Below, one piece after another: positions 1 through 42,283 of a stretch of DNA of 42,283 nucleotides. The number at the start of each line of letters is the position of its first letter. Within the stretch, counting starts at the first letter, position 1. The notes under the pieces are model-generated. The model made no database searches. It saw only the letters and a program-made list of their open reading frames with translations, and was not told the origin of the DNA. The position numbers and the translations under genes were made by a program. The DNA is from a virus (Duplodnaviria > Caudoviricetes): positions 1 through 42,283 of the IMG/VR virus record IMGVR_UViG_3300027956_000018; one strand, given 5' to 3'.

Positions 1-147
1 CGTCCAGGAAGGTCTTCAGTTGACGACCTTGTCCCCGAAAGCGGCCCCCTTCGGTTGTCCCTGGGCGCGGAACTTCAGGGATCCGCCCTGATCGACCCTG
101 AAGGCCTTCTTCTTCCCGGCGACTTCCTTGATCATCATGTTATCGTA
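1..147. repeat. Terminal direct repeat, left copy (circularisation/assembly overlap)
   Basis: 1-147 equals 42136-42283 except one missing C (cagttgacg here vs cagttcgacg at 42157). The repeat lies inside one gene, so the contig closes into a circle of about 42,136 bp. Confidence 0.95.
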
Positions 148-1314
148 ACTTAGGCCGACGGCGTCCCAGTTCGAAAGCCAGGCGTCGGCCGCGAACCCGT
201 CCGCGACGCCTTCGACCTTGCTTGTCGTCAAAAGCGTTTTCGCTTTTTCAAGATCGTCTGTCCATTTCGAAAGAACGGTTCGCTTCCCGTCTTTCCTGAC
301 GAAGTCGACGACGGGCCGGTCTTCAATCCTGGCCAGGCCATAAAGCTTATTTGCAAGAACTTCATTATGGGCGTGATCTTCGTCGACAAACTTCAGATAG
401 AACTTTTCCCCGGCCTTGTTCGCGACCTGTTCGCCTGGGTTCGATCCCAGTTGCGGCCCGACGTTCGTAAAATCCGAATAGTCCGGTTCGACGGCGGCCG
501 AAACGATCGCCTGGGACTGGGCGACTTCGGCGGCCGGTGCTATGACGACGACCGGCGGATCCGGCGTTATGAAGGAAAAGAAGGTCTTCGGAAGGTTCCC
601 GAAGGTGTCGACTTGCTTCTGGGCGCCGTTCGAAATAACCTTGAAGGATCCGACCCAGTCTTTATCGGCCAGGGGAAGAACGATATTTTCTTTCGCGACG
701 CCCTTCGCCGTCTGTTCGGCGATCGCCCTGGCCGTGATCTCTTTATCCGTCAGGACTTCAAGCCCCATTTTCTTGACCTGTCTTTCGGAAACCGACCGGG
801 CGACGCATCTACAATTATGACCGTTCGGCGGGTAGTTCTTCGCCCAGAAGGGATCGTCGAAGGGCGCGACCGTCCCATTCATGATCGCGTGATTCGGGCG
901 AACCCGTTCGTCGCCGAAGGTGACGTATTGAAGGAAAGGCCGGATCGCCTTTACGAAATCCTGCTGATCGAATCGGCCGGTTTGATAAGCGAAATTGATC
1001 GCGTTCCGATAGACGACTTCGGGAACGACGATATTGTTCAAAACTTCAGGCGTGATCATTCGCTTGAAGGCGGCGAAGTCCGTTCCGTTTTCGATCGCGG
1101 TGTTTGCGGCCTTCTGGATCGACAGGATCGCCCGGTTCGACAGGTCGCCCGAAACCGTCCAGGAAGTCAGTTTGTTCGCGAAGTCCTGGGCGTAAAAAGA
1201 AGCCTTGTCCATGACGACGCGGGAACGGGCGCGCGCGATCGAATCCTTTAAAACCTTCGTCATGAAGGTATTTTTGAAGCCAGTCGTCGAAAGCGGCTGA
1301 GTTTTAACGGCCAT
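1..1314 (-). CDS. MuF (Mu gpF / SPP1 gp7-like) head protein fused to an atypical kinase domain; 5' part of a gene continuing across the junction to 39914
   Basis: MuF motifs YRNAINFAYQTGR, GDERVRPNH, FWAKNYPPNGHNCRC. Kinase-like motifs GPQLGSNPG, FYLK, NEVLANKLY, DAWLSNWD, DN, RVDQGGSL. Likely ATG at 1314 after GGAAAGGG. The stop at 16-18 results from the 1-nt deletion in the left repeat copy. Confidence 0.9.
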
Positions 1315-1534
1315 TATCGGCCCTTTCCTGGCCGTTCCCGTTGTCTGCAAAAACATGAAAGACTTGATTCGGAAGAAGGGAAAGCTTGATCCGTTGATAA
1401 ACGTCGCCGTTCCCGTCGTCGCGGAAGGTAAGAACTTCCCCGACCCGATAATAGACCCGGCGCGGCGGATCGCCTGGGCGCCCCTTGTCGACGACTTCGA
1501 CGGAGCAGATCTTTTCTTTCTTCAGAAGCGCCAT
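1304..1534 (-). CDS. Small hypothetical protein between portal and MuF
   Basis: ORF preceded by TCGAAAGG; fills the portal-MuF gap and overlaps the MuF start. Confidence 0.6.
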   Translation of the reverse strand: MALLKKEKICSVEVVDKGRPGDPPRRVYYRVGEVLTFRDDGNGDVYQRIKLSLLPNQVFHVFADNGNGQERADNGR

Positions 1535-1552
1535 AATCAAGCGCCTTTCGAA

Positions 1553-3250
1553 TTAAATCAGTCCTTTTCGAACCCCGTCGTCGCCGACATAATAGGCGAT
1601 ATTGAGGGAATCGGAAAACATTTTCGCGAAGGTCGAAGCGTCGATCACGTTATTTAAGGTCGCCAGGCGAACCGTCATTTCTTCATAGGTTTCCGACGTC
1701 TTCAGGATTTCGGAGATCTTCGCCTTCAGGTCGTCGGAAAGATATGACATTCTTTCGATCGACCCGTCGATAAACTTGTCGATCCCCTTCTGAAGGGTGA
1801 AAGCTTCCCCGAATTCCTGGGCGCCCCCCTTGTCCTGGAAGGTAGATCGGCGACCCTGGGCGCCTTCCCGTTCGGTCTGGGCGGCCCCTGGCGAAGGCCT
1901 GGCGGCCGGTTCCCGGTCTTCCCCTTCGCCTTCCCCGTCCCCGGCCGGGAAACCCTGTCCCAGGGCGCCGGGTGCGGCCGGTTCGACGATTTCGAAGTCG
2001 TCTTCCTTCAGACGATAGGCGCGCGCGATATAATCTTCCGTGAAACGAACCCCGATTTTCTCCGTCAAAAGGCCGTCCCGTTCGGCCAGGTCTTTGTTTA
2101 ATTCCTTTTGATCGATCAGGGACATTACAGGACAAGCGACTTCGACCCCGAAATTCAGGTCGGTAACGATCCGGCCGATCTTCTTCAGCGTCCGTTCGAC
2201 CATTGCCCGGTCTTCGTCCTGAATTGATTCCAGGACGGTTAAATGGGTTTCGGTCGCGGCTTGGGATCCGCTTTCGGAGTTTTCGATCGTCAGGGTTTCC
2301 CCCAGGATCGCCTTCGAAATTTCGATATTCATTGAATTTTTATATGATTTATAGGCGTCGGTCGAAGACGCCTTCCCATTCGCTTCAATGACGTCGATCG
2401 TTTCGTCGCCTTCGGAACGGGTGACGACGACCCCGTTTCGGATCATTCCGGCCAGGTCGTTATGAAAATTCGTCAGGTCGGTATCGGAAGCTTTCGAATT
2501 CATCTTTCCGCGAAGAAAAGGCATCCCGTATTTTTCCAGGAATTCGGCCCAGAAGCGAAGGCCGCCCTTCTTGAATTGATACGGCCAGAAACACCTTTTC
2601 GCGGCCCGTTCCCCGTATGGGTTCCGATAGCTTCCTTCATTGACGACGGCGACGAACTTGTTCGGCGGAAGGTCGACAAGGTCGAACCCCCAGGATTGAT
2701 TGACCGACTTCGCCTTCAGGATCCCGTCTTCGTTATAGACGAACCATTCGAAGGGCTTCGCCATGACGTTTTGAAGAACGATCTGGCCGTTCGGCCGGTC
2801 GGAAGTGATCGGAAGGCGGTTGTAAAAAAGTTCAAGATAGGTCGCCCCGTAAAAGGGCGCGTCAAGAATTTCGTTGACGACTTCAGGAAGGCGTTCGATC
2901 TTGCTGAATTGTTCTTCGACCATGTCGCGCGCGGCGTCCGCCTTCGCGTCGCCCGGCTTGCCCGACAGGATCGTCAATTTCATTCGCTTGACCCGGCTTT
3001 TCCGTTGCATGACGGATCCCGCGACATGAGAATCGGCCATAAGATCGTAGTATGTCGCGGCCGTCAGTCCGGCCTTCTGAAGGACGACGTCGGGATCGGG
3101 AAGAAGGCCATTCAGGAAGACCGTGAAAAGTTCCATGTCCTTCATTTTCAGGAAATGTTCATTCGCCTTCCCCGAATCGGAAGCGCGCGCGTTTCTTTCG
3201 CCCGAAAGTTTTGTCTGAAGCGATTTCCAGAAATCATATAAGGCCGACAT
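1553..3250 (-). CDS. Portal protein, Mu gp29/DUF935-like
   Basis: Motifs ILDAPFYG, NPYGE, FWAEFLEKYGMP, ISKAILGETLT; directly downstream of the terminase. Confidence 0.9.
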   Translation of the reverse strand: MSALYDFWKSLQTKLSGERNARASDSGKANEHFLKMKDMELFTVFLNGLLPDPDVVLQKAGLTAATYYDLMADSHVAGSVMQRKSRVKRMKLTILSGKPGDAKADAARDMVEEQFSKIERLPEVVNEILDAPFYGATYLELFYNRLPITSDRPNGQIVLQNVMAKPFEWFVYNEDGILKAKSVNQSWGFDLVDLPPNKFVAVVNEGSYRNPYGERAAKRCFWPYQFKKGGLRFWAEFLEKYGMPFLRGKMNSKASDTDLTNFHNDLAGMIRNGVVVTRSEGDETIDVIEANGKASSTDAYKSYKNSMNIEISKAILGETLTIENSESGSQAATETHLTVLESIQDEDRAMVERTLKKIGRIVTDLNFGVEVACPVMSLIDQKELNKDLAERDGLLTEKIGVRFTEDYIARAYRLKEDDFEIVEPAAPGALGQGFPAGDGEGEGEDREPAARPSPGAAQTEREGAQGRRSTFQDKGGAQEFGEAFTLQKGIDKFIDGSIERMSYLSDDLKAKISEILKTSETYEEMTVRLATLNNVIDASTFAKMFSDSLNIAYYVGDDGVRKGLI

Positions 3251-3286
3251 TTTGACCCCTTTTGTTGACGTCTTTTGAAATATAAA

Positions 3287-5065
3287 TTAAAATCCCCTGG
3301 CTTCAAAGCGCCGAAGACTTACCCTTTCCGGCTTCCCGATCGGCTTTTCCCTGGGCTTCCCGCCCTGGCGCGCGGCCGTCTGGGCGATCGCAAGCGACAT
3401 GACGCGATCGTCATGATTGATCCCAGTCGATCCCAGTTTCCCGTTATTGTTTTCATAGGTCGACAATTCCGTGAAATGGTTAAGACTTTCCGTTCGAAGT
3501 TCGCCGTTCCGAAGGGCTTCGTCAAGGTCGCCCGTTAGGGTGAACTTGTTTGAAGCGGAAGTCAGCCATCCGTCTTTTTTATCATGACCCTTGAAAAGAC
3601 GGTGATATTTGAAACGGTTCTTCAGATCCAGGATAACCCCCAGGCCGTCTTTGTTCCGTTCGATCGCCAGTTCGGCCCCGTCGTCATACCACAAGGCCAG
3701 GAGAAGGATTTTATATCCGAAGACGTCGGGCGAAAAATGGCCGTGAAGGGCGGCCGCATGAGTTCCGGCGACGCCCGTCGGATCCCGAAGGATAACGTCG
3801 GCCGATGAATAGTCGCCCCTTTCCAGGCCTTCGGCAAGGTCGACCCCTATAAAGGAACGGTTTTCCCAGACCGGCTTCGTCGGAAACGCCCAGACTTCAA
3901 GTTCGTATTCGGCGCCCTTGTCGACTTCAATGAAACGCGGCTTCGGATCGTCTTCGTCCCCGTCGTTCACAAGATAGCCCCGTATTCCGTCCCGCGTCGC
4001 GGCCGAACCGGCTTCAATCATGGAAGCGTCGAAGCGACAGAAACCCGATCCTAAATAATTTATATCAAGTTCCTGGGCGACTTCGCGCGCGGAAATATAG
4101 GAAAGACATTTTCCGTCATACCAGGGCGACCGAAGCTTCGATTCCGTTACCTTCCCGGCCGCGTCTACAAGATAGCCGTTTTTACTGATCCGGCTTTCTG
4201 GAAGGTCTGGACATTCGACCCTTTCGCCTTGCGGACTGAAATAATAAAGGTCTTCCCGTTTCCCTGGGATCCGCGTCCAGTGGAAAGTATGAATTCGACA
4301 AAGACCGCGATCGCGAATTGCCTTGAACAGGTTGATCCCCTTCGGCGTCGAAACCCTTTGAATAGTGTTTGTCGTTTCCTGAAGGGCCGTTTCTATCCCC
4401 TGAATTATTCGGGCGTTTACTGAAGCGTGTTCGTCTACAAAGACGGCGGTCTTCCGGCCCGATCGCCCGGCGTCCATCGTCGTCGCCTGGCCGACGATCG
4501 AATTCCCGTTGTCTGGGTTCTTCAGCGTCATATACTTTGAATGACGGCGCGGATCCCATTCGATCGGCCGCATCCAAAAGGGAAGGCGATCATTCATATA
4601 CCGAAGCTTTCCAAACATGGACGACGGCGTCGGATTGTCGACTTCGTCTTCCTTCATGGAAAGAAGAAGGGCTTCGAACGATTCGCCGAATATGAATTCA
4701 TGAAGATAGGTTCCCAGGATCAAATAAGTGACCCCGGTTTCCCGCGACTTCTCCGTCAGGGATCCGATCCCGATCTTTATTTCTTCAAGGTATGAAAGGA
4801 TTAATTCGGCCTGGAAATCATAGGGAATAAATGGAAAGTGATTCGGTTCAATCTTCGGGTTATACGTCCAGAGAAGATATTTAAAAAAGAAGACGATATC
4901 CCGGCGCGCCAGGTTATAGACTTCCCTTTGAACGGCCGGGTTCGTTTCCGCTTCGGAAAGGAATTCGATCCGGCGGTCAAGGTTCTTCTTGAAATCAGTA
5001 GGAAGCCAGGACGTTCGCGAGATCGCGCGCGCGTTTTGCGGCGTCGTCTGGGGTGTCGTTTCCAT
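3287..5065 (-). CDS. terL: Terminase large subunit
   Basis: Q-motif PYDFQ, Walker A EKSRETGVT, Walker B VFVDEHA, STPKG, RNase H-like GVDLAEG and HDDRVMS. Confidence 0.92.
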   Translation of the reverse strand: METTPQTTPQNARAISRTSWLPTDFKKNLDRRIEFLSEAETNPAVQREVYNLARRDIVFFFKYLLWTYNPKIEPNHFPFIPYDFQAELILSYLEEIKIGIGSLTEKSRETGVTYLILGTYLHEFIFGESFEALLLSMKEDEVDNPTPSSMFGKLRYMNDRLPFWMRPIEWDPRRHSKYMTLKNPDNGNSIVGQATTMDAGRSGRKTAVFVDEHASVNARIIQGIETALQETTNTIQRVSTPKGINLFKAIRDRGLCRIHTFHWTRIPGKREDLYYFSPQGERVECPDLPESRISKNGYLVDAAGKVTESKLRSPWYDGKCLSYISAREVAQELDINYLGSGFCRFDASMIEAGSAATRDGIRGYLVNDGDEDDPKPRFIEVDKGAEYELEVWAFPTKPVWENRSFIGVDLAEGLERGDYSSADVILRDPTGVAGTHAAALHGHFSPDVFGYKILLLALWYDDGAELAIERNKDGLGVILDLKNRFKYHRLFKGHDKKDGWLTSASNKFTLTGDLDEALRNGELRTESLNHFTELSTYENNNGKLGSTGINHDDRVMSLAIAQTAARQGGKPREKPIGKPERVSLRRFEARGF

Positions 5066-5558
5066 TCGAAAGGCGTTCCTTCAATTTCCTGAAGTCGACG
5101 CGGCCTTCGACTTCATGGACGTTTTTAAATTCGCCTGAAATTTCGAAGAAGGTTTTGACGTCCAGGCCGTTCGGGTTCGGCCGCATGACCCGACGGGCGA
5201 AACGACCGGCGACGACTTCGCAAGCGACCCGAAGCCTTTTCCGCCATTTCGAAAAGTCGAAGTCGTTTAAATGGCTTGAAACCGCGTTGACCGAAAGTTT
5301 TATTCCGTTCGCCTGAAGCTTCCTGGAAATGGCGACAGACGAAGGAATGACGCCCCGTTCGTCGACAATGGAAACATAAGCGGCGACAATGTATTGGTGA
5401 TTCCGAAGCCAGTCCTTCCGCGCGTCTTTGGGGACATTCAGAAAGTCGTCTTCGGCGAACTGAAGAAGCGAATTCATGTCGGCGTAATTCTTGTTGAACT
5501 TCGCCTTCTTGCTTTCTTTCTTCTTACAGGTTTTTACAGGTTTTGTTTTTTCGGCCAT
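4995..5558 (-). CDS. Putative terminase small subunit
   Basis: Immediately upstream of and overlapping terL; basic and helical, with its own SD and promoter. Positional call. Confidence 0.55.
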   Translation of the reverse strand: MAEKTKPVKTCKKKESKKAKFNKNYADMNSLLQFAEDDFLNVPKDARKDWLRNHQYIVAAYVSIVDERGVIPSSVAISRKLQANGIKLSVNAVSSHLNDFDFSKWRKRLRVACEVVAGRFARRVMRPNPNGLDVKTFFEISGEFKNVHEVEGRVDFRKLKERLSNGNDTPDDAAKRARDLANVLASY

Positions 5559-5578
5559 GCCCGGCCCCTTTCGAATAT

Positions 5579-5606
5579 AAGATAGATAAAATCAATGAAT
5601 TGTCAA
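5579..5606 (-). promoter_or_regulatory. Sigma70-like promoter for the packaging/head operon
   Basis: TTGACA-N16-TATCTT upstream of the terS candidate. Confidence 0.55.
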
Positions 5607-5621
5607 AACCGGCTTCGCCCT

Positions 5622-5801
5622 TCAGTCTTCAAGTTCTTCGGCCAGGCGTTCCCATATCCGGCCCAGGCCTTCGCGTTCAAGGCTTTCCGTGACCCGTTCG
5701 TCCTGTTTATTCTCCGTCAGGACAAGATAAGCCAGGGCGGTTTTAAGCTTCTTCGCTTCGTCTTTCGTCAGGAAAAGGACGACTGAATCTTCTTTCGGCA
5801 T
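5622..5801 (-). CDS. Small hypothetical protein (59 aa, MPKEDSVVLFLTKDEAKKL...)
   Basis: Translated by hand, below the ORF-track cutoff; fills the gap with genome-typical codons. Confidence 0.6.
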   Translation of the reverse strand: MPKEDSVVLFLTKDEAKKLKTALAYLVLTENKQDERVTESLEREGLGRIWERLAEELED

Positions 5802-5804
5802 GAT

Positions 5805-6293
5805 CTAAAGATAAATGTTTCCGGCGCGATCAAGGTATATAACCGGAATCCCAATTTCCTTCGCGATCGCGATCTCCGCGTTGACCCCTTTTGAAATTTT
5901 CCATCCTGGAAGGCGAAGGACGAATATTTGCGAACAGACCGAAAGATAGGCGCGATCGATCTTCTCCCAAAATTCCCAGGACGTCGGAAGCTTCCCGGCT
6001 TCGGCGATCGGGTGAAAGTGAGAGATCGGAGAAAAGACGACGTAACCGGCGTTGACCATTTTCGCGGCCATTTCGTTCGCTTCAAGAAAACGGGCCGTCA
6101 TAACAAGCGGATTCGGATCCGAGTAAGGACAAGCTAAATAGACAAGCGGCTTCTTTTTCAACGGTTCGCCCTTCTTTTCTGAAGTCTGAAATCCGGCTTC
6201 GATCGCCATTTTCAAAAGGCGCCTATATCCCGGCGAAACTTTGTTCGCCTGGCTTAAAGCTTCCAGTCTTTCAAGGGCTTGTTTCTTTTTCAT
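5805..6293 (-). CDS. DUF1937 / nucleoside 2-deoxyribosyltransferase-like protein
   Basis: Motifs VYLACPYS, VFSPISHFHP, LPGWKISKGVNAEIAIA; start chosen after an AAAGGG SD. Confidence 0.75.
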   Translation of the reverse strand: MKKKQALERLEALSQANKVSPGYRRLLKMAIEAGFQTSEKKGEPLKKKPLVYLACPYSDPNPLVMTARFLEANEMAAKMVNAGYVVFSPISHFHPIAEAGKLPTSWEFWEKIDRAYLSVCSQIFVLRLPGWKISKGVNAEIAIAKEIGIPVIYLDRAGNIYL

Positions 6294-6858
6294 GGGTTTC
6301 CCTTTTTTTGAGTTCTTCATGAAGTTCGCGCGCGATCCTTTTCAAAGACCAATGTTTCGCATGGATCGAATTCAGGAACTTCGAATAATGATCCGGCTTC
6401 GCTTTTTCCTTGTGAAGTTTCGGCGCTGTTCTTTCGATCCTTGCGGAATAGTGTTCGTTTATGATTATTAGCCCGGCGTATTTCGGAAGGTCTTCGGGCT
6501 TTATGACGCCTTCAGGACAAGCATAATAGAAATAGTTCGGCCTGGAAATGGCGTATTTCCCGCGTTCGTTTAGTCCGCGTTTCCAGTATTCGCCCCCGAT
6601 TGAATGATTGATCATTCTCAATTCGTTTTCCGACGGTTCGCGTTCGCCATGTTCAAGCCCCAGGTGTTTTTCGGCCTTCTTGAAATCGGCGCGGAAGTCG
6701 GCCCTTGAAATCTTGATTTCAATTTCGGTAATATATCCGGCCCTGGAAACGACAAGAAGATCCGATTCCCAGGGATAGATATAAATATTCGGGAAAAGTT
6801 GATAACCCTGAAGGTAGTAATTATAAAGGATTTCCTGGATCAGGGATTCGTCGATCAT
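6271..6858 (-). CDS. PD-(D/E)XK nuclease-like protein (MmcB-like)
   Basis: ESDLL..EIEIKISRADFRADFKK, PNYFYYACP, LPKYAGLI; ATGA overlap at 6855-6858. Confidence 0.7.
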   Translation of the reverse strand: MIDESLIQEILYNYYLQGYQLFPNIYIYPWESDLLVVSRAGYITEIEIKISRADFRADFKKAEKHLGLEHGEREPSENELRMINHSIGGEYWKRGLNERGKYAISRPNYFYYACPEGVIKPEDLPKYAGLIIINEHYSARIERTAPKLHKEKAKPDHYSKFLNSIHAKHWSLKRIARELHEELKKRETHEKETSP

Positions 6859-7028
6859 CCGATCGGCCTTCCGTCGGTCGAAGCTTTTGTCGGCTTCGCG
6901 ACGTTGTCGCCTTCGCAATTAGGACAACCGTATTTCCCCAGGGAAGCGGGAAAAATTGTCCCGCATTTACATTTATAATCTTCGGCGACAGGTTCGACGC
7001 CCAGATTCCGGCCGGGCGCCTTCTTCAT
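6855..7028 (-). CDS. Small zinc-ribbon protein (57 aa)
   Basis: Hand translation MKKAPGRNLGVEPVAEDYKCKCGTIFPASLGKYGCPNCEG..., containing CxC and CPNC; overlaps both neighbours. Confidence 0.65.
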   Translation of the reverse strand: MKKAPGRNLGVEPVAEDYKCKCGTIFPASLGKYGCPNCEGDNVAKPTKASTDGRPIG

Positions 7029-7552
7029 AACGAGATCCGTTCCTGGGCCGGATCGGCGTCGGGCGTCATTGAAGAAGCGGCCGTCGGAAGGCCGAAGGGT
7101 TTCGCCTTCGAAAAGTCTTCCCTTGTCCCGTCCAGGACGACAATCATGGAATCATGCATACCGCATTTATTTTCGACGAAGTCGCCCTTCGTATTGCGGC
7201 CGGAAAACTTCAGGCGGCCGCGAATGAAGCGGATCGCCGTCGCCCAGGGAAGTATTTCTTCATGAAAGATTTTCGTCGAAGTCGAAACGGGAAGAAGAAG
7301 GACACACAAGGCGCCCCCCTTCGCTTCGGCGATCGCCCGGCGAATGAAGGCTTCTTTCAATAGCCTGGAATAAGGCGGATTGATGAAATTGCGTTTCCCC
7401 CAGGGGATCCGAAGGCCGTCGTTTTCAGGAGTGATCGGCGTCGACGACAGAGGACAAGGATCGAAGTCGAATTGAAATTCCCTGTCAAGCATAAATAGGA
7501 AATCTTTCGGCGTCGCCCAGTTGTCGGAAGCTTCAAGGTTCCGGTCTTTCAT
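7025..7552 (-). CDS. Phage DNA N6-adenine methyltransferase (phage Dam-like family)
   Basis: DNWATP, FDFDPC, catalytic FINPPYS, IRFIRGRLKF. Confidence 0.88.
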   Translation of the reverse strand: MKDRNLEASDNWATPKDFLFMLDREFQFDFDPCPLSSTPITPENDGLRIPWGKRNFINPPYSRLLKEAFIRRAIAEAKGGALCVLLLPVSTSTKIFHEEILPWATAIRFIRGRLKFSGRNTKGDFVENKCGMHDSMIVVLDGTREDFSKAKPFGLPTAASSMTPDADPAQERISL

Positions 7553-14511: not shown

Positions 14512-15423
14512 TTATAACGCCATGAGAAGGCTAAAGGCGTTTTCCTTGACGGTCTTCGCGGATCCGATCATGGACGCCCGTTCGGCGCGCGCCATGTCGT
14601 TATTAAAACGGTAATGATCCAGATATTCCGTGACCGCGTTATAGGCATCCCAGGCCGATCGGCCGAAGTTCCCCAGGCCTGAGAAGAACAGATCGAAGAC
14701 CTGGCTTCGAACCTTCTTTGTTTGCGTCGGAACTTCGATCGCGTCTTCCGTGACCCCGGCCGCGCGCGCCTTCCTGGCTTCGGGCGTATTAACCGGGAAG
14801 ACTTCGGAAATAAACCGCTTGACCGCTTCGGCGTCCATGATCTTCCGATCCAGTTCGCGCGCCAGTTCAAGCGACCTGAAAAGATAGGCGTCGACCTTCG
14901 CGTAAACCTTCAGGGCTTCCGCGATCTTCGCTTCGGCCGAAGCGACATGACGGATCGAAAGGCGACCGATTTCGGCGTCATGGCGAACCATTCCGTTCGA
15001 ACAGACGACGACGTCGAACAAAGGCGCGATCCGAAGGGCGCCGGATCCGTCGAAGCAATTCAGGATCCGAAGGCCGGTCTGGATCTGATCGCCCCGATTC
15101 CTGACAGTCCAGGATGTCGGCGTCGGAAACCGCATCGTCAAAGCGACCTTCGATCCGCCTTCCCAGGCCGTCGCCTTCTCAAAATATCCGCCGTTGTCGC
15201 GCGCCAGGACGTCGAAGAAAGAAAAGGCGGCCGTATTCTGGACGGGGAAATAGCGTTTCCCGACGACGCCCAGGATCCCGCCGTTGTCGGAACGGATCAG
15301 GGCTTTATGAGATTTGATTTCCCGGCCGTCGGCCGTCAAGATTTCCCGTTCTTCAGCCTTCCAGGCCATACCATAAGCTTCGATCGCTTCGGCGGCCCGT
15401 TCGAATTTTTGCGTCGTCGTCAT
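14512..15423 (-). CDS. DUF932 family phage/plasmid protein
   Basis: ILGVVGKRYFPVQN, NCFDGSGAL, VVCSNG, SAWDAYNAVTEYLDH. Confidence 0.85.
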   Translation of the reverse strand: MTTTQKFERAAEAIEAYGMAWKAEEREILTADGREIKSHKALIRSDNGGILGVVGKRYFPVQNTAAFSFFDVLARDNGGYFEKATAWEGGSKVALTMRFPTPTSWTVRNRGDQIQTGLRILNCFDGSGALRIAPLFDVVVCSNGMVRHDAEIGRLSIRHVASAEAKIAEALKVYAKVDAYLFRSLELARELDRKIMDAEAVKRFISEVFPVNTPEARKARAAGVTEDAIEVPTQTKKVRSQVFDLFFSGLGNFGRSAWDAYNAVTEYLDHYRFNNDMARAERASMIGSAKTVKENAFSLLMAL

Positions 15424-34736: not shown

Positions 34737-34796
34737 GAAAAAGTCGAAGGGCCGACGGCCGGGCGCGGGATGATTCGCCAGGCGCGCCGACCCTTC
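34737..34796 (-). terminator. Stem-loop / putative terminator after the major capsid gene
   Basis: GAAGGGTCGGC...GTCGGCCCTTC stem followed by GACTTTTT. Confidence 0.45.
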
Positions 34797-34821
34797 TGTA
34801 TTTGCTTCGTCTTCTGGCCGG

Positions 34822-35742: not shown

Positions 35743-35780
35743 GGTATAATTCCTTTTTTGTTAAGGTTCGCGGTTTTGTG

Positions 35781-36158
35781 TTACGGGATGACGACTTCGT
35801 CCGTGGTGACGACGACTTCGATCGCTTCGTCGGGATAACCGTTGTCCAGGGCGATCGCGACCCGTTTCGCCAGAGTGGAAACCCCCATGACGGCCAGCTT
35901 TCCGGCCGAATCGGATCCCAGAAACTGACCGGCGGTTGCGGTTGTTCCCAGGATCGCCAGGGTGACTTCTCCGATCATGGCGTATGAAGCGTGTTCGCCG
36001 ACGGCGAAGCTTTCTTCCTGGGCGACGTTGCCTTTTGTGATCCCCAGACAGTTCGCGTCGGCGGTTCCGATCACGATCCCCTTTTCGGCGGATCCCTTCT
36101 TGACACAGTAACCGGCCTTGATTGCGGCGGTTTCGACGACTCCGGTTTTGCAAGACAT
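35781..36158 (-). CDS. Capsid decoration/cement protein (DUF2190-like)
   Basis: Small Gly/Ala-rich beta protein (AGQFLGSDSAGK, VAIALD) between the protease and capsid genes. Confidence 0.75.
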   Translation of the reverse strand: MSCKTGVVETAAIKAGYCVKKGSAEKGIVIGTADANCLGITKGNVAQEESFAVGEHASYAMIGEVTLAILGTTATAGQFLGSDSAGKLAVMGVSTLAKRVAIALDNGYPDEAIEVVVTTDEVVIP

Positions 36159-36191
36159 GGAATTTCCTTTGTTAAAGTTTCGGGTTCGGGT

Positions 36192-36755
36192 TTACTTCTT
36201 CGCGGACTTGATTTTCGCGCGCGCCTGGATCAAGGCCTGGCCGAAGGTGAGTTTCGAATCGGCCTTCATGATCTTGTCCGCTTCGGCGCGTTCTTCGGAA
36301 TAGACGGCTTCGTCGCCCTGGGCGCCCTTGTCGTTCGTTCCGCGATATTCCCCGGCGGGTGCGGCGACGATATTCGCGACGAAGGATTTCATGGCGGCCA
36401 GGAAGGTCTTCTTGACCTGGGCGTCTTTGCCGTCGGCGCCCTTCTCCGTGAATTCGATTTCTTTTGCGGGATCGGCGGAAAGAAGAACCGGGCGAAGGAT
36501 CGCGACCTGGGCGGGTGTGACCTTGTCGCCGAATTCCTTGATCGCGGCTTCGACGTCGGCGGAATAGGCGGCGACCTTCTGGGCGTCGGCGGCCTTCTGG
36601 GCGAATTCCGCTTCGGTCGCGGCCTTCGCGTCTTTCGCGGCCTTGTCGGTCGCGGTCTTCAGGGTTTCGGCGAACTGGACGTCGGCGGCCTTCTTCGCGG
36701 CTTCGGCGGCCTTGTCCTGAATTTCCTGGATCTCTTTTTCAGTGTATTCTTTCAC
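36192..36755 (-). CDS. Nested in-frame scaffold protein (Mu gpZ-like)
   Basis: Internal AAGGGGA SD followed by in-frame GTG at 36755, at the protease/scaffold boundary. Confidence 0.6.
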   Translation of the reverse strand: MKEYTEKEIQEIQDKAAEAAKKAADVQFAETLKTATDKAAKDAKAATEAEFAQKAADAQKVAAYSADVEAAIKEFGDKVTPAQVAILRPVLLSADPAKEIEFTEKGADGKDAQVKKTFLAAMKSFVANIVAAPAGEYRGTNDKGAQGDEAVYSEERAEADKIMKADSKLTFGQALIQARAKIKSAKK

Positions 36756-37235
36756 GGGATTCCCCTTCGGGTTAAGGTTAAAATCATATTCCTTCTGGGT
36801 TTCGAAATGATCGGCGGAATAGGCGCCCTGATAAACGTCCTGAAGACCCTTGACGGCCGGTGTCGCGGCCCCCAGGAAAGCCAGGTGATGTAAATAAAAG
36901 CGACCTTCTTCGTCGGCGCGGATCCCGATTGACCGCTTTTTAAAGCGGCCTTCGCGGACAAGGGAATCGAAATCGGTCGCGACTTGCTTCAGTTTTGCGT
37001 AAAGCGTCGAACCGATCCGCTTCAGGCCGGAAACCCAGGCGGCCGCCGGGCGGTCGTTATGATCTTCGCGGATATGTCCCAGGGTGACGGGCGGTTCATG
37101 ACTGGCGGGATTGAAGGTCGAAACAAGATCGTCGAAAACTTCTTCGGTTAAGTCGCCTTGCGGGAAGGTTCCGGTCTTCGCGACTTCGAACCAATCTTCC
37201 AGGGCCGAAAATTCTTTCGCCGGGTTCTTTTTCAT
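36192..37235 (-). CDS. Prohead protease + scaffold (Mu gpI-like)
   Basis: PVTLGH, PAAAWV, GRFKKRSI, LHHLAFLGAATPAVKGL; Ala/Lys/Glu-rich C-terminal scaffold. Confidence 0.88.
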   Translation of the reverse strand: MKKNPAKEFSALEDWFEVAKTGTFPQGDLTEEVFDDLVSTFNPASHEPPVTLGHIREDHNDRPAAAWVSGLKRIGSTLYAKLKQVATDFDSLVREGRFKKRSIGIRADEEGRFYLHHLAFLGAATPAVKGLQDVYQGAYSADHFETQKEYDFNLNPKGNPVKEYTEKEIQEIQDKAAEAAKKAADVQFAETLKTATDKAAKDAKAATEAEFAQKAADAQKVAAYSADVEAAIKEFGDKVTPAQVAILRPVLLSADPAKEIEFTEKGADGKDAQVKKTFLAAMKSFVANIVAAPAGEYRGTNDKGAQGDEAVYSEERAEADKIMKADSKLTFGQALIQARAKIKSAKK

Positions 37236-37243
37236 TTATTGGA

Positions 37244-37272
37244 AATTTAATCATTTTTAAAATATTCGGCAA
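37244..37272 (-). promoter_or_regulatory. Putative late promoter, probably giving a leaderless protease mRNA
   Basis: TTGCCG-N17-TAAATT ending 8 nt before the ATG at 37235; no SD. Confidence 0.5.
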
Positions 37273-37283
37273 GTTATTTTTTT

Positions 37284-37670
37284 TCAGGCCGGAACTTTGA
37301 CCCGTTCAAGATCCTGTTTTTTTATCGACCGAAAGTGATTCGGCGCAATCTTTCGCCCGGCCGCGACGGCCAGACCGGCGACGCAATTACAGGGGACAGT
37401 CGTTCCCAGGCGGTCATAAATCGATCCGGTCGACTTCCGGTAATGACGATAACCGGGGATCGGAAACATTCGAACCGGCCCAAACATGGATTGAAATTTC
37501 CAGTCCCTTTCGGTTCCGTTCCCTTCCTTCCAGTCGGTCGGAGTAAGGATCCCCATGTCGGGCGGTTCGCCCTGGGCTTCCTTCATTCCGTCGACGTAGT
37601 AACAACAATTTTCACAATGTTCCTTTTCTTCGTCGGGAAGGCCGACTTCAGCCGTAAAACCTGGATTCAT
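37284..37670 (-). CDS. Hypothetical Cys-containing protein coupled to the initiator
   Basis: ATGA overlap with the initiator stop; CENCC and CNC motifs. Confidence 0.55.
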   Translation of the reverse strand: MNPGFTAEVGLPDEEKEHCENCCYYVDGMKEAQGEPPDMGILTPTDWKEGNGTERDWKFQSMFGPVRMFPIPGYRHYRKSTGSIYDRLGTTVPCNCVAGLAVAAGRKIAPNHFRSIKKQDLERVKVPA

Positions 37671-38425
37671 TTTGTCCCCCTTCTTTCCCATACCTGATTT
37701 TGTTTCATAGACAGGGCGTTCGAAAGCGTCGCCTTTAGGTCGATCGACGCGGCCCGTTTTTTCTTCTTGTGTTTCCATCCGGCTTCAGTCCCCCAGAAAA
37801 GATTCATAGCCTTTTCCAGAGAAAGGCGAATGTCCAGGCCGGGATTATATTTTTTCATTTCGGCCATCCATTCAGGATCCTTCATGATTTCCGTCCATTG
37901 CCTTTTTAATTCGGCCGAATAGACGGCGAAGTCTTCCTTCCAGGTCTTCGGTTTCCCCCCAGTCCCCCCTTCCCCTCTTTCTTCTTCTTTGTCTTTAAGA
38001 TTTAAAGAATCCTTATCCTTATCCTTATCCTTAACGGTATGACATACCGTATCGGGTAGAGTATGGGATAGGGTATCGAATACAGTATCAAGAAGGGAAA
38101 GGTCGGAAAGGCGTTTTTTTACGTTATTATGAAACTTTGATTCCGTCAGGTGTCCATATTGAAATTTTATAAAGTCGACGACAAAAAGATAGTTTCCAGG
38201 ATCGACCGCAAGAAGGCGGACTTTTTTTCCGTTAATTTCTTCGACGATTTTATTGTCGACGACTGTTCCGATCTGAAAAGAAGCCAGGCCGAAATCTACC
38301 TTCCAGATCCCGGCAAAGTCGCAATTATCAAGAATGTATTTCCAGAAAAGTTTTCCGACCGGCGAAAGTTCCCTATACCATTGATCGGCCCAGATTGTCG
38401 TTTCGGAAAGTCGCTTCGCCATCAT
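37667..38425 (-). CDS. Phage replication initiator (replisome organiser / lambda O-like architecture)
   Basis: TIWADQWYRELS..KLFWKYILDNCDFAGI wHTH-like N-terminus; repeat-coded linker and KDKDKDKD; helical C-terminus. Confidence 0.8.
   Translation of the reverse strand: MMAKRLSETTIWADQWYRELSPVGKLFWKYILDNCDFAGIWKVDFGLASFQIGTVVDNKIVEEINGKKVRLLAVDPGNYLFVVDFIKFQYGHLTESKFHNNVKKRLSDLSLLDTVFDTLSHTLPDTVCHTVKDKDKDKDSLNLKDKEEERGEGGTGGKPKTWKEDFAVYSAELKRQWTEIMKDPEWMAEMKKYNPGLDIRLSLEKAMNLFWGTEAGWKHKKKKRAASIDLKATLSNALSMKQNQVWERRGTK
38037..38096. repeat. Five 12-bp-period iteron-like repeats (putative origin) inside the initiator gene
   Basis: GTAT at 38037, 38049, 38061, 38073 and 38085; adjacent (TTATCC)3 and an AT-rich tract. 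Confidence 0.65.
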
Positions 38426-38546
38426 AAAACCCCTTCAGAAAAGGGCCGTCCCAGGCCGGGCGACCTACGAGAGAAGCCCGACCTGGGAACAGTTCCGCCA
38501 TGAAGACGAAACGGCCGATTATTTTAAAGGTGGTTTCGTAGGTCGC
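38426..38546 (-). promoter_or_regulatory. Structured 5' leader of the initiator gene
   Basis: Two overlapping inverted-repeat pairs plus a hairpin over the SD. Confidence 0.55.
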
Positions 38547-38550
38547 TTTT

Positions 38551-38579
38551 AATATAGCGAAAGCATTTCAAGAAGTCAA
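38551..38579 (-). promoter_or_regulatory. Sigma70-like promoter of the initiator gene
   Basis: TTGACT-N17-TATATT, the same hexamers as the 16.5 kb early promoter. Confidence 0.75.
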
Positions 38580-38618
38580 TACGCAAAATATAGGGCTTCG
38601 CGCGCGCGCGGCCACAAG

Positions 38619-38780
38619 TCAAAAGTCTTTCCGTGAAAGTTCACAGTTCAAAAGTGAATTTACCAGGAAGAAGTCGGCCATGATCGGATCTTCCCTGGGC
38701 GCCGGGCGACCTGTCTTCGCGTCCCCGTCGTCCCTGGCCAGGGCTTTCAGGAATTTATAGACGAAGGTTTCTTGAAACAT
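38619..38780 (-). CDS. Small hypothetical protein (53 aa)
   Basis: Hand translation MFQETFVYKFLKALARDDG...; TAATG overlap with the upstream gene. Confidence 0.4.
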   Translation of the reverse strand: MFQETFVYKFLKALARDDGDAKTGRPAPREDPIMADFFLVNSLLNCELSRKDF

Positions 38781-39232
38781 TAAAAGGCCTTGAAGGTCTG
38801 AAGGCCGTTGATCCGCTTCAGAAGGTCGGCCGCGTCCTTCCCGGTTTCCATTTCTACAAGGACATTTCGGCGGACGACGACAAGACAGAAGACCGGCCCC
38901 CGGTTGTCGGGTATGAAACCGAAATAGTATTCGACGACAGTTGTTTCGTTCGTCGCCTTGTCCTTCTGGAAGTCCCGCCAGACCGCAAGTGGATCCAGGA
39001 CGATCGCGGCCGCGACGTCCATTTTCTTTTCATTTTCCAGGGCGCCCAGAATCCGAGATCCGAAGGTCGTCGGATAAGCGTCGATCGGCTTCAAGGTCGC
39101 CCGGTTAAGGTTTGGCGACGCGGCCATATAGTTTGATTTTACAAGAAGGGGAAGGGCGTCAAGAAGTTCGACGATTTCTTCGTCCCTTTGTTGACTGAAG
39201 TTCAAGGGCGCGGTCTTCGTTTCTTCGGCCAT
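38780..39232 (-). CDS. Hypothetical protein (third gene after the MuF fusion)
   Basis: Start re-assigned to MAEETK at 39232 after GAAAGGGGG. Confidence 0.7.
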   Translation of the reverse strand: MAEETKTAPLNFSQQRDEEIVELLDALPLLVKSNYMAASPNLNRATLKPIDAYPTTFGSRILGALENEKKMDVAAAIVLDPLAVWRDFQKDKATNETTVVEYYFGFIPDNRGPVFCLVVVRRNVLVEMETGKDAADLLKRINGLQTFKAF

Positions 39233-39551
39233 TAAGTAACCCCCTTTCCTGATATTTTCGCATTTCGATCCAGACGTCAAGGCATGATGATTTATAATCT
39301 TCGTCCGCCGTTATTGCGCCTTTAAAGCCATCGTAATTTATTTTTTCGATTTGACCGATCATGAATTTTCTGAAGTCGTCGCGGCTAATTACCGCCCTGA
39401 ATTGATAATCGGCAAGGCGCGTTTCTTGAATGTCCGCCAGTGGAAAAAGATCTTGAAGGTGTGTATGGCTTCGGGATCGAACAAGAAGAAGAGTGTCAGA
39501 CCGGCGGAAGGCGACGACAGAAATAAAACCTTTGACAGTAAAGATCCACAA
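39159..39551 (-). CDS. Conserved-type hypothetical protein (MWIFTxxGFISVV...ADYxFRA...YDGFK)
   Basis: GTG start after TCGAAAGGGGG; resembles a recurrent uncharacterised phage/MGE family (from recollection, not a search). Confidence 0.75.
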   Translation of the reverse strand: MWIFTVKGFISVVAFRRSDTLLLVRSRSHTHLQDLFPLADIQETRLADYQFRAVISRDDFRKFMIGQIEKINYDGFKGAITADEDYKSSCLDVWIEMRKYQERGLLNGRRNEDRALELQSTKGRRNRRTS

Positions 39552-39569
39552 GTTGAACCCCCTTTCGAA

Positions 39570-39917
39570 TTAAGCCTTTCGAAGATATTCAAGGGCTTTC
39601 GCGTGTCGTTCCGGCCCCTGTTCAAGATAGTTATAAAGCGGTTCTTCCGCCCAGATTTCTTTTTCGGTCGGCGGTCTTAATATATAGATTTTGTTCTTCC
39701 AGGTCAAGGCGCCGGTCTTCTGGAATTTACCCTTGATATTCGAAACCCTGGGCCGGTCGATATAATCATTCGGCGCGTCCCAGTCCCAGGTAAAAACAAA
39801 AACTTCATTCAGTTTTTCCACAAGATCCGCGACGACTGTTACCGCGTTGTTTTCCGTGTTTTCGATCACAAGGCCGTCGATCAGGGCGGCCCGTTCAAGT
39901 TCGGTTAAGGGTTTCAT
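39570..39917 (-). CDS. Hypothetical protein translationally coupled to the MuF fusion (candidate immunity)
   Basis: ATGA overlap at 39914-39917 with the MuF fusion stop. Confidence 0.7.
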   Translation of the reverse strand: MKPLTELERAALIDGLVIENTENNAVTVVADLVEKLNEVFVFTWDWDAPNDYIDRPRVSNIKGKFQKTGALTWKNKIYILRPPTEKEIWAEEPLYNYLEQGPERHAKALEYLRKA

Positions 39918-42283
39918 TTATAGCCTGTCTTTGGATCGAAGTTTATTTCCTGGCGAAGTTTGACGACGTCGCGAACCTTGCGGCCGCCGGGAAGGGTTTC
40001 TTCGTAACCGTGTTTTTTAAGGACGGCGATCACTTTTTCTTTTATTTCGTTGGATTCTACCGTGATATAGCGAAGACCTTCAAAGAAGTCGACCGACCCC
40101 TTGAAGTTCGTTTCGTTATCTGAAGAAATATCCGCGAATCGTTTATATTCGGGCGTCGAACTTTTTCTTTGAACGATATTCGCCTTCTTCACGTTTCCCC
40201 AAGAATCCCCGAAATAACTGACCGCGTCCAGGCGGCGGATTTTGTCGGGATCGTAAATAATCCCGGTTCGCGGAAGATTAAGGGCGTGTTTTATCCGAAG
40301 GAAGCAATAATTTCCCCCGCCTGTTTTAACGTCTGAATTCGGAGAGATCCCGAAGGTAACGATTCCCCGGTCGATCCTTTCAAGTGTCGAAAAGTATTTC
40401 CCGCCCGACGAAAGAATCCGATCTATAACGACGTCCCAGACTTTGTCTTTATCTCTCTCTATTCCGTTTACTTCGGTCGTCCCCAGGGCTTCATGAGTTA
40501 GACTATGGGTTCGACTGAAGTCGTCGAAGTCCTGGCCTAAATCGGTTTCAAGGCGTTTCGGCGCCATGCGGACGATCGCGCCGTCGCCCTTCGCGCCTTC
40601 CCTTCTTCCGATCGGGTTATAGTCCGGTTCTTTGTCGACGACGAAGTTTTCAAGCCCCCGGCGTTTCCCGATCAGGTTGACGTTATTTTTCAGAAGGGCG
40701 ATCCGTCCTTCCTGATCCTTTATTTTCGCGGCGTCTTCAAGAAGCCGGTCGACATTCGCGGGATCGAACTTCGCGATCATTTGATTTAGATAAAGTTCTT
40801 CGACGTCGGCGAACTTCGGCGCGGTCGTTTCGATTCCCAGATCGTCGATTATGTCCATGATCTTTGTCGTTGCCCGACTGGCCGGGCCTTCGACCCTGAC
40901 GGAAACCCGGCCAGTATAGGCGAAGGCGTCCTTATCCGTGACAAGTTGGATCCGCGATCCCTTGTAATTCGATTCAAGAATAATGTCCATCGGTTTGACG
41001 TTTGCCCCCAGGGCGACTTTGTCCGTTTCAAAAACTTCGCCGTTTTTGAATTCGGAAATCCTGGGAACAAGTTGCTTTTTGTGAAACTTCATTCCGGCCT
41101 TCGCGGTCGGTTCGGGCTGAATCGGCGTCGGCAAAACGTGACCCTGGAAAAGGCCTTCTTTCTTGAAGACCGGCGCGATCTTCTTTTCCAGGGAAGGCTT
41201 CAAAGCTTCTTCCATAGCGTCGATCCAGGATTTATAAAAGACCGAAAAGTCCCTGGCGACCTGGGCCGGATAGTTCCCCAGTTTGACCATTTCAAGAAGC
41301 GTCGATTCAACGGCCCTAAATCTTGTTTTCGCTTCTTCAAGCCATCCGTTCGCGATCGTCGTTCCCAGGGAATTGCCGTTTCGTTCGGCGACCTTGATCT
41401 TCCGAAGGGAAGCCAGAAGGGATTCGTTCAACGGAGCAAGATCGGGCGCGTTTATCGGTTCTTCGGCGCTGATATCCCTGAATAACTTCTTCCAGTATTT
41501 TTCGCGAAGCTTGAAGGTCGCGGTCGTTACCTTCTGGCCGGAAGGATCGAAGGTTTCCCTGAAATTGATTTGCTGATCTTCGATCGCGCCTTTGTCGCCT
41601 GGGACGTTATAACCGACCGACTTCGATTCCGTGATCTTCGCCTTGTCCTTCGCCGTGACCTTCTGGGCGCCCCGTTCGAAGTCCCGGGCTTCCTGGCTTT
41701 CTTTCTTCAGGCGTTCGAAGACTTCGTTCGAAGTCGTCGCGGCTTCTTCCTGGGCGGCCTTGTCGGCGGCCTTCAGGGCGTCTTTCTTCGCCTTGTCCTG
41801 GGCGGCGGCTTCCTTCTGGGCGGCGATCGCTTTATCCTTCGCGGCCTTGTCGGCGGCCGTCTTTGCCTTCTTCGCTTCGGCGGCGGCGGTCTTCGCGGCC
41901 TTCTGTTCAAGCTTCCCGGCGGCCTTCTGTTCGGCGGCCCAGGCTTTAACGTCGTCCCGACGGGCGATCAGTTTATCGGCCAGGGCTTTCTTTTCGGCGG
42001 CCGTCCCGTTCGAAAAGGCGTTCACAAGTTTCCGAATGTCGGCCGACTTGATCTTCCCGACCCGTTCGGCGCCGGGTAAAAAATCGGCCGTTGAATAGTT
42101 CCTGAAGACTTCGAAGGCCTGTTTATTAGCGCCTTCGTCCAGGAAGGTCTTCAGTTCGACGACCTTGTCCCCGAAAGCGGCCCCCTTCGGTTGTCCCTGG
42201 GCGCGGAACTTCAGGGATCCGCCCTGATCGACCCTGAAGGCCTTCTTCTTCCCGGCGACTTCCTTGATCATCATGTTATCGTA
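39914..42283 (-). CDS. 3' part of the MuF-kinase fusion: kinase C-lobe, Ala/Lys linker, unknown middle domain, C-terminal ADP-ribosyltransferase-like domain
   Basis: In frame with 1314-148 through the terminal repeat (about 1,178 aa total). C-terminal LTH..RILSSGGKYFST..YCFLRI..NE.NF..LRYITVES pattern. Confidence 0.85.
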   Translation of the reverse strand, partial: YDNMMIKEVAGKKKAFRVDQGGSLKFRAQGQPKGAAFGDKVVELKTFLDEGANKQAFEVFRNYSTADFLPGAERVGKIKSADIRKLVNAFSNGTAAEKKALADKLIARRDDVKAWAAEQKAAGKLEQKAAKTAAAEAKKAKTAADKAAKDKAIAAQKEAAAQDKAKKDALKAADKAAQEEAATTSNEVFERLKKESQEARDFERGAQKVTAKDKAKITESKSVGYNVPGDKGAIEDQQINFRETFDPSGQKVTTATFKLREKYWKKLFRDISAEEPINAPDLAPLNESLLASLRKIKVAERNGNSLGTTIANGWLEEAKTRFRAVESTLLEMVKLGNYPAQVARDFSVFYKSWIDAMEEALKPSLEKKIAPVFKKEGLFQGHVLPTPIQPEPTAKAGMKFHKKQLVPRISEFKNGEVFETDKVALGANVKPMDIILESNYKGSRIQLVTDKDAFAYTGRVSVRVEGPASRATTKIMDIIDDLGIETTAPKFADVEELYLNQMIAKFDPANVDRLLEDAAKIKDQEGRIALLKNNVNLIGKRRGLENFVVDKEPDYNPIGRREGAKGDGAIVRMAPKRLETDLGQDFDDFSRTHSLTHEALGTTEVNGIERDKDKVWDVVIDRILSSGGKYFSTLERIDRGIVTFGISPNSDVKTGGGNYCFLRIKHALNLPRTGIIYDPDKIRRLDAVSYFGDSWGNVKKANIVQRKSSTPEYKRFADISSDNETNFKGSVDFFEGLRYITVESNEIKEKVIAVLKKHGYEETLPGGRKVRDVVKLRQEINFDPKTGYK
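42136..42283. repeat. Terminal direct repeat, right copy
   Basis: Matches 1-147 with one extra C at 42157, which keeps the reading frame open. Confidence 0.95.

What the first reader, a model, noticed from the sequence alone, without database searches (positions are those of the whole stretch)
1..42283. Extreme both-strand depletion of GAG/CTC, CAC/GTG and GCA/TGC, with enrichment of short palindromes
Seen: bases 1-738 contain no GAG or CTC (first CTC at 739) although about twenty would be expected by chance, and by eye they stay several-fold to ten-fold rare throughout. CCTC/GAGG, CTCG/CGAG, GCTC, GCAC, CCAC, CAGC, GTAC and CTAG are very scarce, whereas TCGA, GATC, GGCC, CCGG, GCGC, CCWGG, GTCGAC, CGATCG and GGATCC are abundant. 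Because both a word and its complement are missing in a genome coded on one strand, simple codon preference is an unlikely sole explanation. Phages usually avoid palindromes; this one shows the opposite. Inference: long-term selection by host systems recognising asymmetric motifs (Type I/III/IIG R-M, BREX-like, PAMs), a repair or mutation bias around host-methylated palindromes, or, speculatively, purging of the target motif of the phage's own nucleic-acid-modifying enzyme.
Basis: partly seen in the sequence, partly recalled or inferred. Interest (0 to 1): 0.75.

Follow-up and report, generated by a model that had tools for sequence, protein, structure and literature searches.

The report
Phage purges Type I restriction half-sites
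This phage has lost about 90% of the DNA word GAG/CTC and most copies of several other short adenine words on both strands, and the surviving copies avoid a partner thymine 6-9 bases downstream, the spacing that Type I restriction enzymes read, so the pattern is likely a genome-wide escape from many host restriction enzymes of a class that a large survey found phages do not avoid.

Summary
The depletion is real: GAG/CTC 140 against about 1,385 expected, CAC/GTG and GCA/TGC down 2-5 fold. It holds on both strands, out of frame, between genes and after synonymous shuffling. The palindrome enrichment is mostly a by-product. Only GATC and CCWGG are favoured, and many palindromes are absent.

New result: the depleted words behave like Type I R-M half-sites. 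Surviving copies avoid a convergent T-word at A-to-T distances 6-9 only (0.58 of expected, z -10; divergent 0.93). That is the methylation interval of Type I enzymes. Relatives in this uncultured myovirus clade purge different word sets with the same geometry. T7, JBD67 and E. coli DNA do not.

The scan noted a GAG purge earlier in the PA73 family. PA73, KL1 and RcTitan show the same 6-9 signature here. A 2018 survey reported no Type I site avoidance in phages.

Limits: partner-less GAG is still 7-fold depleted, so contiguous m6A sites or an unknown GAG reader also contribute. The host is unknown. The phage's DarT-like domain does not explain the pattern.

The parts
1..42283 (.). Whole genome of an uncultured ~42.1-kb myovirus (Mu-like head, HP1/P2-like contractile tail), genes on the minus strand; genome-wide purge of GAG, CAC, GCA, GTA, CTA, CCAA, CATC, CAGC, GCAG, TAAG and of convergent A-word/T-word pairs at 6-9 bp
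   Evidence: both halves of the gene set give 0.58 and 0.59
22..147 (.). Terminal overlap with 42158-42283 (126 bases identical, plus about 20 more with a 1-base difference); the genome is circular or terminally redundant
   Evidence: a contig in run X1 is circularly permuted relative to the window
7025..7552 (-). Phage Dam-family N6-adenine methyltransferase (PF05869); target not determined; a possible contributor to the GATC excess
   Evidence: no match in G001, which still favours GATC x1.7
16..1356 (-). N-terminal part of a MuF head protein that continues across the terminal overlap into 39914-42274
   Evidence: homolog L001 encodes the downstream part of MuF and the C-terminal region in one frame
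39914..42274 (-). C-terminal part of the MuF fusion; its last ~200 aa are predicted to fold like DarT DNA ADP-ribosyltransferases; not the cause of the word purge
   Evidence: absent from GAG-purged L057

Best explanation
The genome lacks most copies of several 3-4-base adenine words, and the remaining copies avoid a convergent thymine word 6-9 bases away; this is likely the cumulative result of selection by many host N6-adenine restriction-modification systems, above all Type I (and geometrically identical Type IIB) enzymes. Shown: the word depletion, its independence of codon usage, and the orientation- and distance-specific pair depletion. From established knowledge (Loenen 2014): each Type I site is two inverted half-sites read by exchangeable recognition domains, with 6-9 bp between the methylated adenines. 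Inferred: facing a host pool that keeps recombining these domains, the phage gains most by deleting the reusable half-site itself with silent changes (GAG to GAA, CTC to CTT, GTG to GTC). Contiguous asymmetric sites (Type IIG/ISP/III, BREX-type) that share the same cores likely add the partner-independent part. Ordinary Type II enzymes likely account for the hard zeros (GGWCC, GCCGGC, CCGCGG, CTAG, GTAC). GATC and CCWGG are likely Dam/Dcm-type methylated, unrestricted words that absorb the displaced sequence.
For: Convergent pairs at spacers 4-8: 42 of 687 have z < -2.5 (null 2.3), against 4 of 709 divergent and 6 of 1,276 tandem. A-to-T distance profile: 5:1.01, 6:0.61, 7:0.43, 8:0.76, 9:0.67, 10:0.97, matching Me-intervals of 6-9 in Loenen Table 1, whose half-sites include GAG, GCA, CAC, CCA, CCAC, GCAC and TAAG. 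The more a word is depleted alone, the more its survivors avoid a partner: Spearman 0.79, n=19; no correlation for divergent pairs or spacers 9-11. Partner T at 6-9 is penalised, but T at 10-13 and G at 6-9 are not. Relatives purge different words with the same geometry: G001 keeps GAG (1.6) but purges GAAG, the window's second most enriched 4-mer. Controls: 0-7 low pairs in each of 20 outside loci against 42 of 550; T7 0.96, E. coli 45 kb 0.97, JBD67 1.00. The unrelated phages PA73, KL1 and RcTitan replicate both the GAG purge and the 6-9 window. GAG survives where it can be neither kind of site: Glu GAG is 6 of 36 in A/T-flanked partner-less contexts against 1 of 245 in G/C-flanked partnered ones.
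Against: Pairing alone explains only about 2-fold: GAG with no T at 6-9 is still at 0.14 of base-composition expectation, and 0.04 in PA73; PA73 has 0 of 29 even in the most permissive context. No single bipartite site stands out: the best pair is z -4.2 among 15,477 tests, so the signal is aggregate. The word-versus-pair correlation is weak in L057 (0.40, p=0.09), and the L058 lineage shows no pooled signal. Divergent pairs are also in excess at spacers 2-3/9-11 (17 of 715). Some known Type I sites are abundant (GAA N6 RTCG 121 copies), so the summed count of 37 Table 1 sites is 235 against 251 expected. Weak signals in T1, L017, L037 and L110 (0.74-0.86) show the effect is not unique. No host, no methylome and no restriction assay.
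Confidence: 0.78

Rival explanations
1. An unidentified host defence reads the bare trinucleotide GAG (and perhaps CAC or GCA) on DNA. Type I selection adds only the pair effect on top.
For: Partner-less GAG is depleted 7-fold here and 25-fold or more in PA73 and RcTitan. Every 4-mer containing GAG is at or below 0.24 of expectation. GAG is the word purged in two unrelated phage groups, one of them on three host genera.
Against: In this clade GAG recovers to 17-33% of Glu codons in A/T-flanked partner-less contexts, near the 31% of a non-purging relative. Residual GAG shows the Type I geometry. No such system turned up in the paper searches.
Confidence: 0.12
2. Mutation or repair bias (VSP-like T:G repair at Dcm sites, or CG-favouring repair) created the signature without selection by restriction.
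For: CCAG/CTGG 1.9x, CTAG 0, CCAA/TTGG 0.18, CG 1.58 and CA 0.58 resemble the VSP signature as recalled from E. coli; CCWGG is favoured x2.5.
Against: CAAG/CTTG is favoured x1.8 rather than depleted. L001 avoids CCWGG yet still lacks CCAA. No local repair bias predicts a deficit confined to A-to-T distances 6-9 in one orientation.
Confidence: 0.04
3. The phage only mirrors a host-wide compositional signature.
For: The host is unknown, so this was not directly excluded.
Against: Close relatives switch words on and off: GATC 3.6 against 0.04, GAG 0.06 against 1.6, GAAG 4.0 against 0.1. PA73 has the signature and JBD67, also a Pseudomonas phage, does not. Rusinov 2018 states that only orthodox Type II sites are avoided in prokaryote genomes.
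Confidence: 0.03
4. The phage purged the target of its own MuF-fused DarT-like ADP-ribosyltransferase, or a CRISPR PAM.
For: The domain is predicted to have a DarT fold (Z 10.4); L001 has both the domain and the GAG purge.
Against: L057/L002 purge GAG without the domain. TCTC is 80 against 41 expected, and TTTC and TGTC are normal; TNTC/TCTC as DarT targets is recalled. AAG and GAA/TTC, recalled as the common type I PAMs, are enriched. Neither idea predicts a 6-9 bipartite deficit.
Confidence: 0.03

Closest known systems
Restriction-site avoidance in dsDNA phages (Rusinov et al. 2018, PMC6286503; abstract, first fifth of the text and passages seen, supplements not opened)
   Same: Silent removal of R-M target words; zeros at orthodox Type II palindromes.
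   Different: That survey reports no avoidance of Type I or IIG sites. Here the strongest effect is on half-site-length words, with a Type I spacing signature that emerges only when many pairs are pooled.
Type I R-M recognition architecture (Loenen et al. 2014, PMC3874165; section 6 with Table 1, and passages with Tables 3-4, seen)
   Same: Two inverted half-sites with adenines 6-9 bp apart; half-sites GAG, GCA, CAC, CCA, TAAG; domains that reassort.
   Different: It describes the enzymes, not a genome-wide phage response. Type IIB enzymes (BcgI, CspCI, PpiI, TstI) share the geometry and cannot be told apart here.
Loss of one Type I motif from the first-injected region of murciaviruses (PMC12455610; abstract and outline only)
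   Same: Phage escape from a Type I system by losing its site.
   Different: One motif, one region. Here many words are purged evenly over the whole genome.
GAG/CTC purge in PA73, KL1 and RcTitan (earlier AI note e1-3410703; recomputed)
   Same: GAG at 0.01-0.02 of expectation and, newly shown here, the same 6-9 convergent deficit.
   Different: Unrelated siphoviruses that lack GATC and keep GCA; GAG there stays absent even in permissive contexts.
MuF-fused effector ARTs (PMC9503650; passages seen) and DarT1/DarT2 (PDB 8baq, 7omu, 7omv)
   Same: A predicted head-protein (MuF) fusion with a C-terminal ART; DarT-like fold.
   Different: [quoted passage not shown] Only 11-14% identity to DarT; activity untested.

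Membership tests
Selection by Type I (or IIB) R-M | Target made of two short half-sites separated by a spacer | tested here: met
   Pair deficit peaks at spacer 6 and is gone at 9-11
Selection by Type I (or IIB) R-M | Inverted orientation: A in the 5' half, T in the 3' half | tested here: met
   Convergent 0.58 against divergent 0.93; 42/687 against 4/709; a G partner is not penalised
Selection by Type I (or IIB) R-M | 6-9 bp between the methylated adenines | tested here: met
   Deficit at 6, 7, 8, 9; none at 5 or 10 in the pooled set (Table 1); GAG and CAC also dip at 5
Selection by Type I (or IIB) R-M | Accounts for the whole single-word depletion | tested here: not met
   Partner-less GAG, CAC and GCA are still at 0.14, 0.26 and 0.28
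Selection by Type I (or IIB) R-M | Host encodes such enzymes and the phage DNA resists them | not testable with these tools
   Host not identified
Orthodox Type II palindrome avoidance | Specific palindromes eliminated | tested here: met
   CTAG 0/15, GTAC 1/18, GGWCC 0/71, GCCGGC 0/48, CCGCGG 0/24, ACCGGT 0/15
Contiguous asymmetric m6A sites (IIG/ISP/III/BREX) | Asymmetric 5-6-mers eliminated | tested here: inconclusive
   GAGAC 0/20, GACTC/GAGTC 2/17, GCCCGC 0/17, TCCGGG 0/24, CTGAAC 2/20; not matched to named enzymes with a database
VSP/Dcm repair signature (recalled) | CCWGG up; CTAG, TTGG and CTTG down | tested here: not met
   The first three fit, but CAAG/CTTG is favoured x1.8
Self-purge for a DarT-like ART | Domain co-occurs with the purge, and TNTC/TCTC is depleted | tested here: not met
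   L057 lacks the domain; TCTC 80/41, TTTC 925/985
DarT family (39914-40573) | DarT fold | tested here: met
   Model pLDDT 84; Z 10.4, rmsd 3.8, 160 aligned to DarT1 8baq; next unrelated hit Z 6.2; Foldseek best E 9e-3
DarT family (39914-40573) | ADP-ribosylates DNA; paired with DarG or NADAR | not testable with these tools
   No activity data; no DarG or NADAR hit among the scanned ORFs

The most novel reading that the evidence does not exclude
Besides Type I half-site selection, a widespread and still unidentified bacterial DNA-reading defence targets the bare trinucleotide GAG. It would have driven unrelated phage families (this sediment myovirus clade, and PA73, KL1 and RcTitan) to delete GAG even where it cannot form any known site.
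Probability: 0.15. Interest if true: 0.88.

Novelty: new variant of a known kind. Interest (0 to 1): 0.68.

Why it matters
A survey of several thousand phage genomes concluded that phages do not avoid Type I sites because those enzymes change specificity too fast. This genome suggests the opposite strategy exists: delete the reusable half-sites, which works against a whole shuffling repertoire. The signal appears when pairs are pooled by orientation and distance rather than tested one site at a time. The A-to-T distance scan is a cheap, database-free test that can be run over all phage genomes. The lineage-specific word lists would be a readable record of the host's recognition-domain pool, usable for host prediction. 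The same signature in cultured phages (PA73, KL1, RcTitan) makes the idea directly testable and may bear on their host range.

Tried and rejected
Host identification failed. The genome-collection scan gave one distant Bacteroidales locus at 32% identity. Cultured phages are 30% identical or less in the capsid protein, plasmids gave only partial terminase hits, and the Atlas gave only 'Uroviricota'. Laying contigs of three runs showed no clear CRISPR spacer. Run X3 (share 0.05) holds a roughly 85-93% relative, but only 40 of its differences on that stretch were listed, so no substitution spectrum was made.

Single-site bipartite scan: no individual 3+3 pair is significant after 15,477 tests. 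Counting 38 published Type I sites gave 23 with 0-1 copies (JBD67 7 of 38) but a summed ratio of 0.93 (90), so it was not used as support.

No Ocr, ArdA or DarA-type anti-restriction gene was hit in PHROGs or Pfam (56 ORFs) or in PADLOC or NCBIfam (22 ORFs); this does not show absence. No tRNA genes.

An mRNA-level cause was rejected because CTC on the coding strand and intergenic DNA are also purged. Hairpin avoidance was rejected because divergent pairs are near normal. The phage Dam gene as sole cause of the GATC excess was rejected because G001 has no match yet favours GATC and CCWGG.

Controls were 20 of the longer loci outside the clade, not all that were fetched. Paper searches found no description of half-site purging or of the GAG purge. 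The library is open-access only, and supplements (such as Rusinov's per-site tables) were not opened and may contain single cases.
Full report
What the window is. It is a complete phage genome of about 42.1 kb and 53% GC, with a terminal overlap and genes on the minus strand. It has a Mu-like head module, an HP1/P2-like contractile tail, a Dam-family methyltransferase and no integrase hit. Cultured phages are 30% identical or less in the capsid protein. Near-identical pieces occur in a second freshwater-sediment run, X2. The host was not found.

The observation. GAG/CTC occurs 140 times against about 1,385 expected; GCA/TGC 266 and CAC/GTG 272 against 688 and 588 under a Markov model. Glu is GAA 881 to GAG 23, and Leu is CTT 510 to CTC 36. 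The deficit persists out of frame after a shuffle that keeps protein and codon usage (GAG 8/125 and 2/60; CTC 36/60 and 27/228) and in intergenic DNA (5 against about 99). A model of synonymous choice given the protein puts the per-site factor at 0.04 for GAG, 0.09 for CAC and CCAA, 0.07 for CAGC and 0.17 for GTA/TAC. The palindrome claim mostly fails. TCGA, GGCC, CCGG, GCGC and CGATCG sit at expectation, and 12 of 36 testable six-base palindromes are under half, several at zero. GATC (x5.9) and CCWGG (x2.5) are the real excesses.

Relatives. Alignment-based scans found clade members at 50-74% protein identity. Each has its own word list. GAG is at 0.03-0.11 in L001, L002/L057, L056, L061, L062, L085/L086, L128, L130 and L131. 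It is 0.5-0.65 in the L058 group, 1.1 in the short L060 and 1.6 in the complete genome G001. G001 and L058 instead purge GAAG, which is 4-fold enriched in the window. GATC and CCGG are abundant in some members and near zero in L001, L056 and L062, and GGCC is near zero in L001 and L062. Such on/off switching fits changing restriction repertoires better than one mutation bias (inference).

The decisive test. Type I enzymes read two inverted half-sites with one adenine each, 6-9 bp apart, through domains that reassort; GAG, GCA, CAC, CCA and TAAG are among the listed halves (Loenen 2014, Table 1). I fitted all words up to 4 bases (plus selected 5-6-mers), resampled synonymous codons from that model, and counted spaced pairs. 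At spacers 4-8, 42 of 687 convergent (A-word then T-word) pairs fall below z -2.5, where the null gives 2.3. Divergent pairs give 4 of 709 and tandem pairs 6 of 1,276. G001 gives 45 of 722 and L057 21 of 605. By A-to-T distance the ratio is 1.01 at 5, 0.61, 0.43, 0.76 and 0.67 at 6-9, and 0.97 at 10. With a fixed word set the pooled value is 747/1,278 = 0.58 (z -10.3), divergent 0.93, and each half of the gene set gives 0.58-0.59. Words most depleted alone are those whose survivors most avoid a partner (Spearman 0.79, G001 0.78, L057 only 0.40). A joint model penalises T at 6-9 but not T at 10-13 or G at 6-9.

Controls. Twenty loci outside the clade have 0-7 low pairs each against 42 of 550, although L017 and L037 show a weak pooled effect. 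T7 (annotated with Ocr) gives 0.96, 45 kb of E. coli chromosome 0.97 and JBD67 1.00; T1 gives 0.86 and L110 0.74. An earlier AI note pointed to a GAG purge in PA73, KL1 and RcTitan. I recomputed it (GAG 0.01-0.02) and found the same convergent deficit at 6-9 only, for example PA73 0.23, 0.58, 0.55, 0.25 with 1.29 at 5 and 1.16 at 10. PA73 and JBD67 are both Pseudomonas phages, which argues for a phage adaptation over a host-wide bias.

What Type I pairing does not explain. GAG with no T at 6-9 is still at 0.14 of expectation, against 0.06 with two or more. In the window GAG does recover where it is A/T-flanked and partner-less: 6 of 36 Glu codons against 1 of 245, while non-purging G001 has 8 of 26 in that context. 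This fits added pressure from contiguous m6A sites that end in or contain GAG (BseRI GAGGAG, BpmI CTGGAG, NmeAIII GCCGAG in Table 4). In PA73 that context is 0 of 29, so a bare-GAG reader is not excluded. No single site is individually significant, and some known Type I sites are plentiful (GAA N6 RTCG, 121 copies), so the purge is selective.

The ART idea. The MuF gene runs across the terminal overlap. Its last domain belongs to a family of 551 clusters and is predicted to fold like DarT (Z 10.4). But L057 purges GAG without it, and TCTC is the least depleted CTC context, so it is a side finding.

Comparison with print. Rusinov 2018 reports no avoidance of Type I or IIG sites and attributes this to fast specificity change (abstract, first fifth and passages seen). 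A 2025 paper shows regional loss of one Type I motif (abstract only). The BASEL paper notes that Type I systems perform poorly because their sites are rare (passages). Nine searches found no account of half-site purging; closed-access papers and supplements were not seen.

Verdict. Real, selected at the DNA level, and most likely driven by host m6A restriction systems. A Type I-type spacing signature is shown, while the enzymes and the host are inferred. It is a new variant of restriction-site avoidance; interest 0.68.

Noticed in passing
window 16-1356 joined to 39914-42274 (-): MuF head protein of about 1,190 aa with a kinase-like middle region (read by eye, no family hit) and a C-terminal domain predicted to fold like DarT1/DarT2 (Z 10.4). 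The domain has 551 related clusters, mostly at the ends of long proteins. Relatives carry different C-terminal domains on MuF (G001, L057, L058).
   Followed up: partly
aligned proteins, window against L057, L058 and G001: His is lost relative to relatives that keep more CAC/CAT (13 against 34, and 20 against 42 at differing positions) but not relative to G001, which also avoids CAC (31 against 34); Trp and Gln trend the same way. The purge may reach the protein level; 20 tests per comparison.
   Followed up: partly
L082-L084 (PA73, KL1, RcTitan): Cultured phages with a strong Type I-type 6-9 pair deficit; in PA73, CAG is normal without a partner (1.03) and 0.13 with two or more.
   Followed up: yes
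L017, L037, L110, L136 (T1): Weaker convergent 6-9 deficits (0.74-0.86), with mild GAG depletion in the three loci but not in T1, suggesting a graded and more widespread effect.
   Followed up: partly
G001 = L079:8541-9146 (+): A methyltransferase-like ORF with a DPPW motif (MT-A70-like by eye, not scanned) in the relative that lacks the window's Dam gene; G001 also avoids GAAC/GTTC (x0.12).
   Followed up: no
L102 (5.5 kb) and the L058 group: GAAG/CTTC almost absent (0.03-0.11) in a distant terminase relative as well as in the L058 group.
   Followed up: no
window 14512-15423 (-): DUF932 / TIGR03299 gene at the start of the replication block; a role against host defence is possible but untested.
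   Followed up: no
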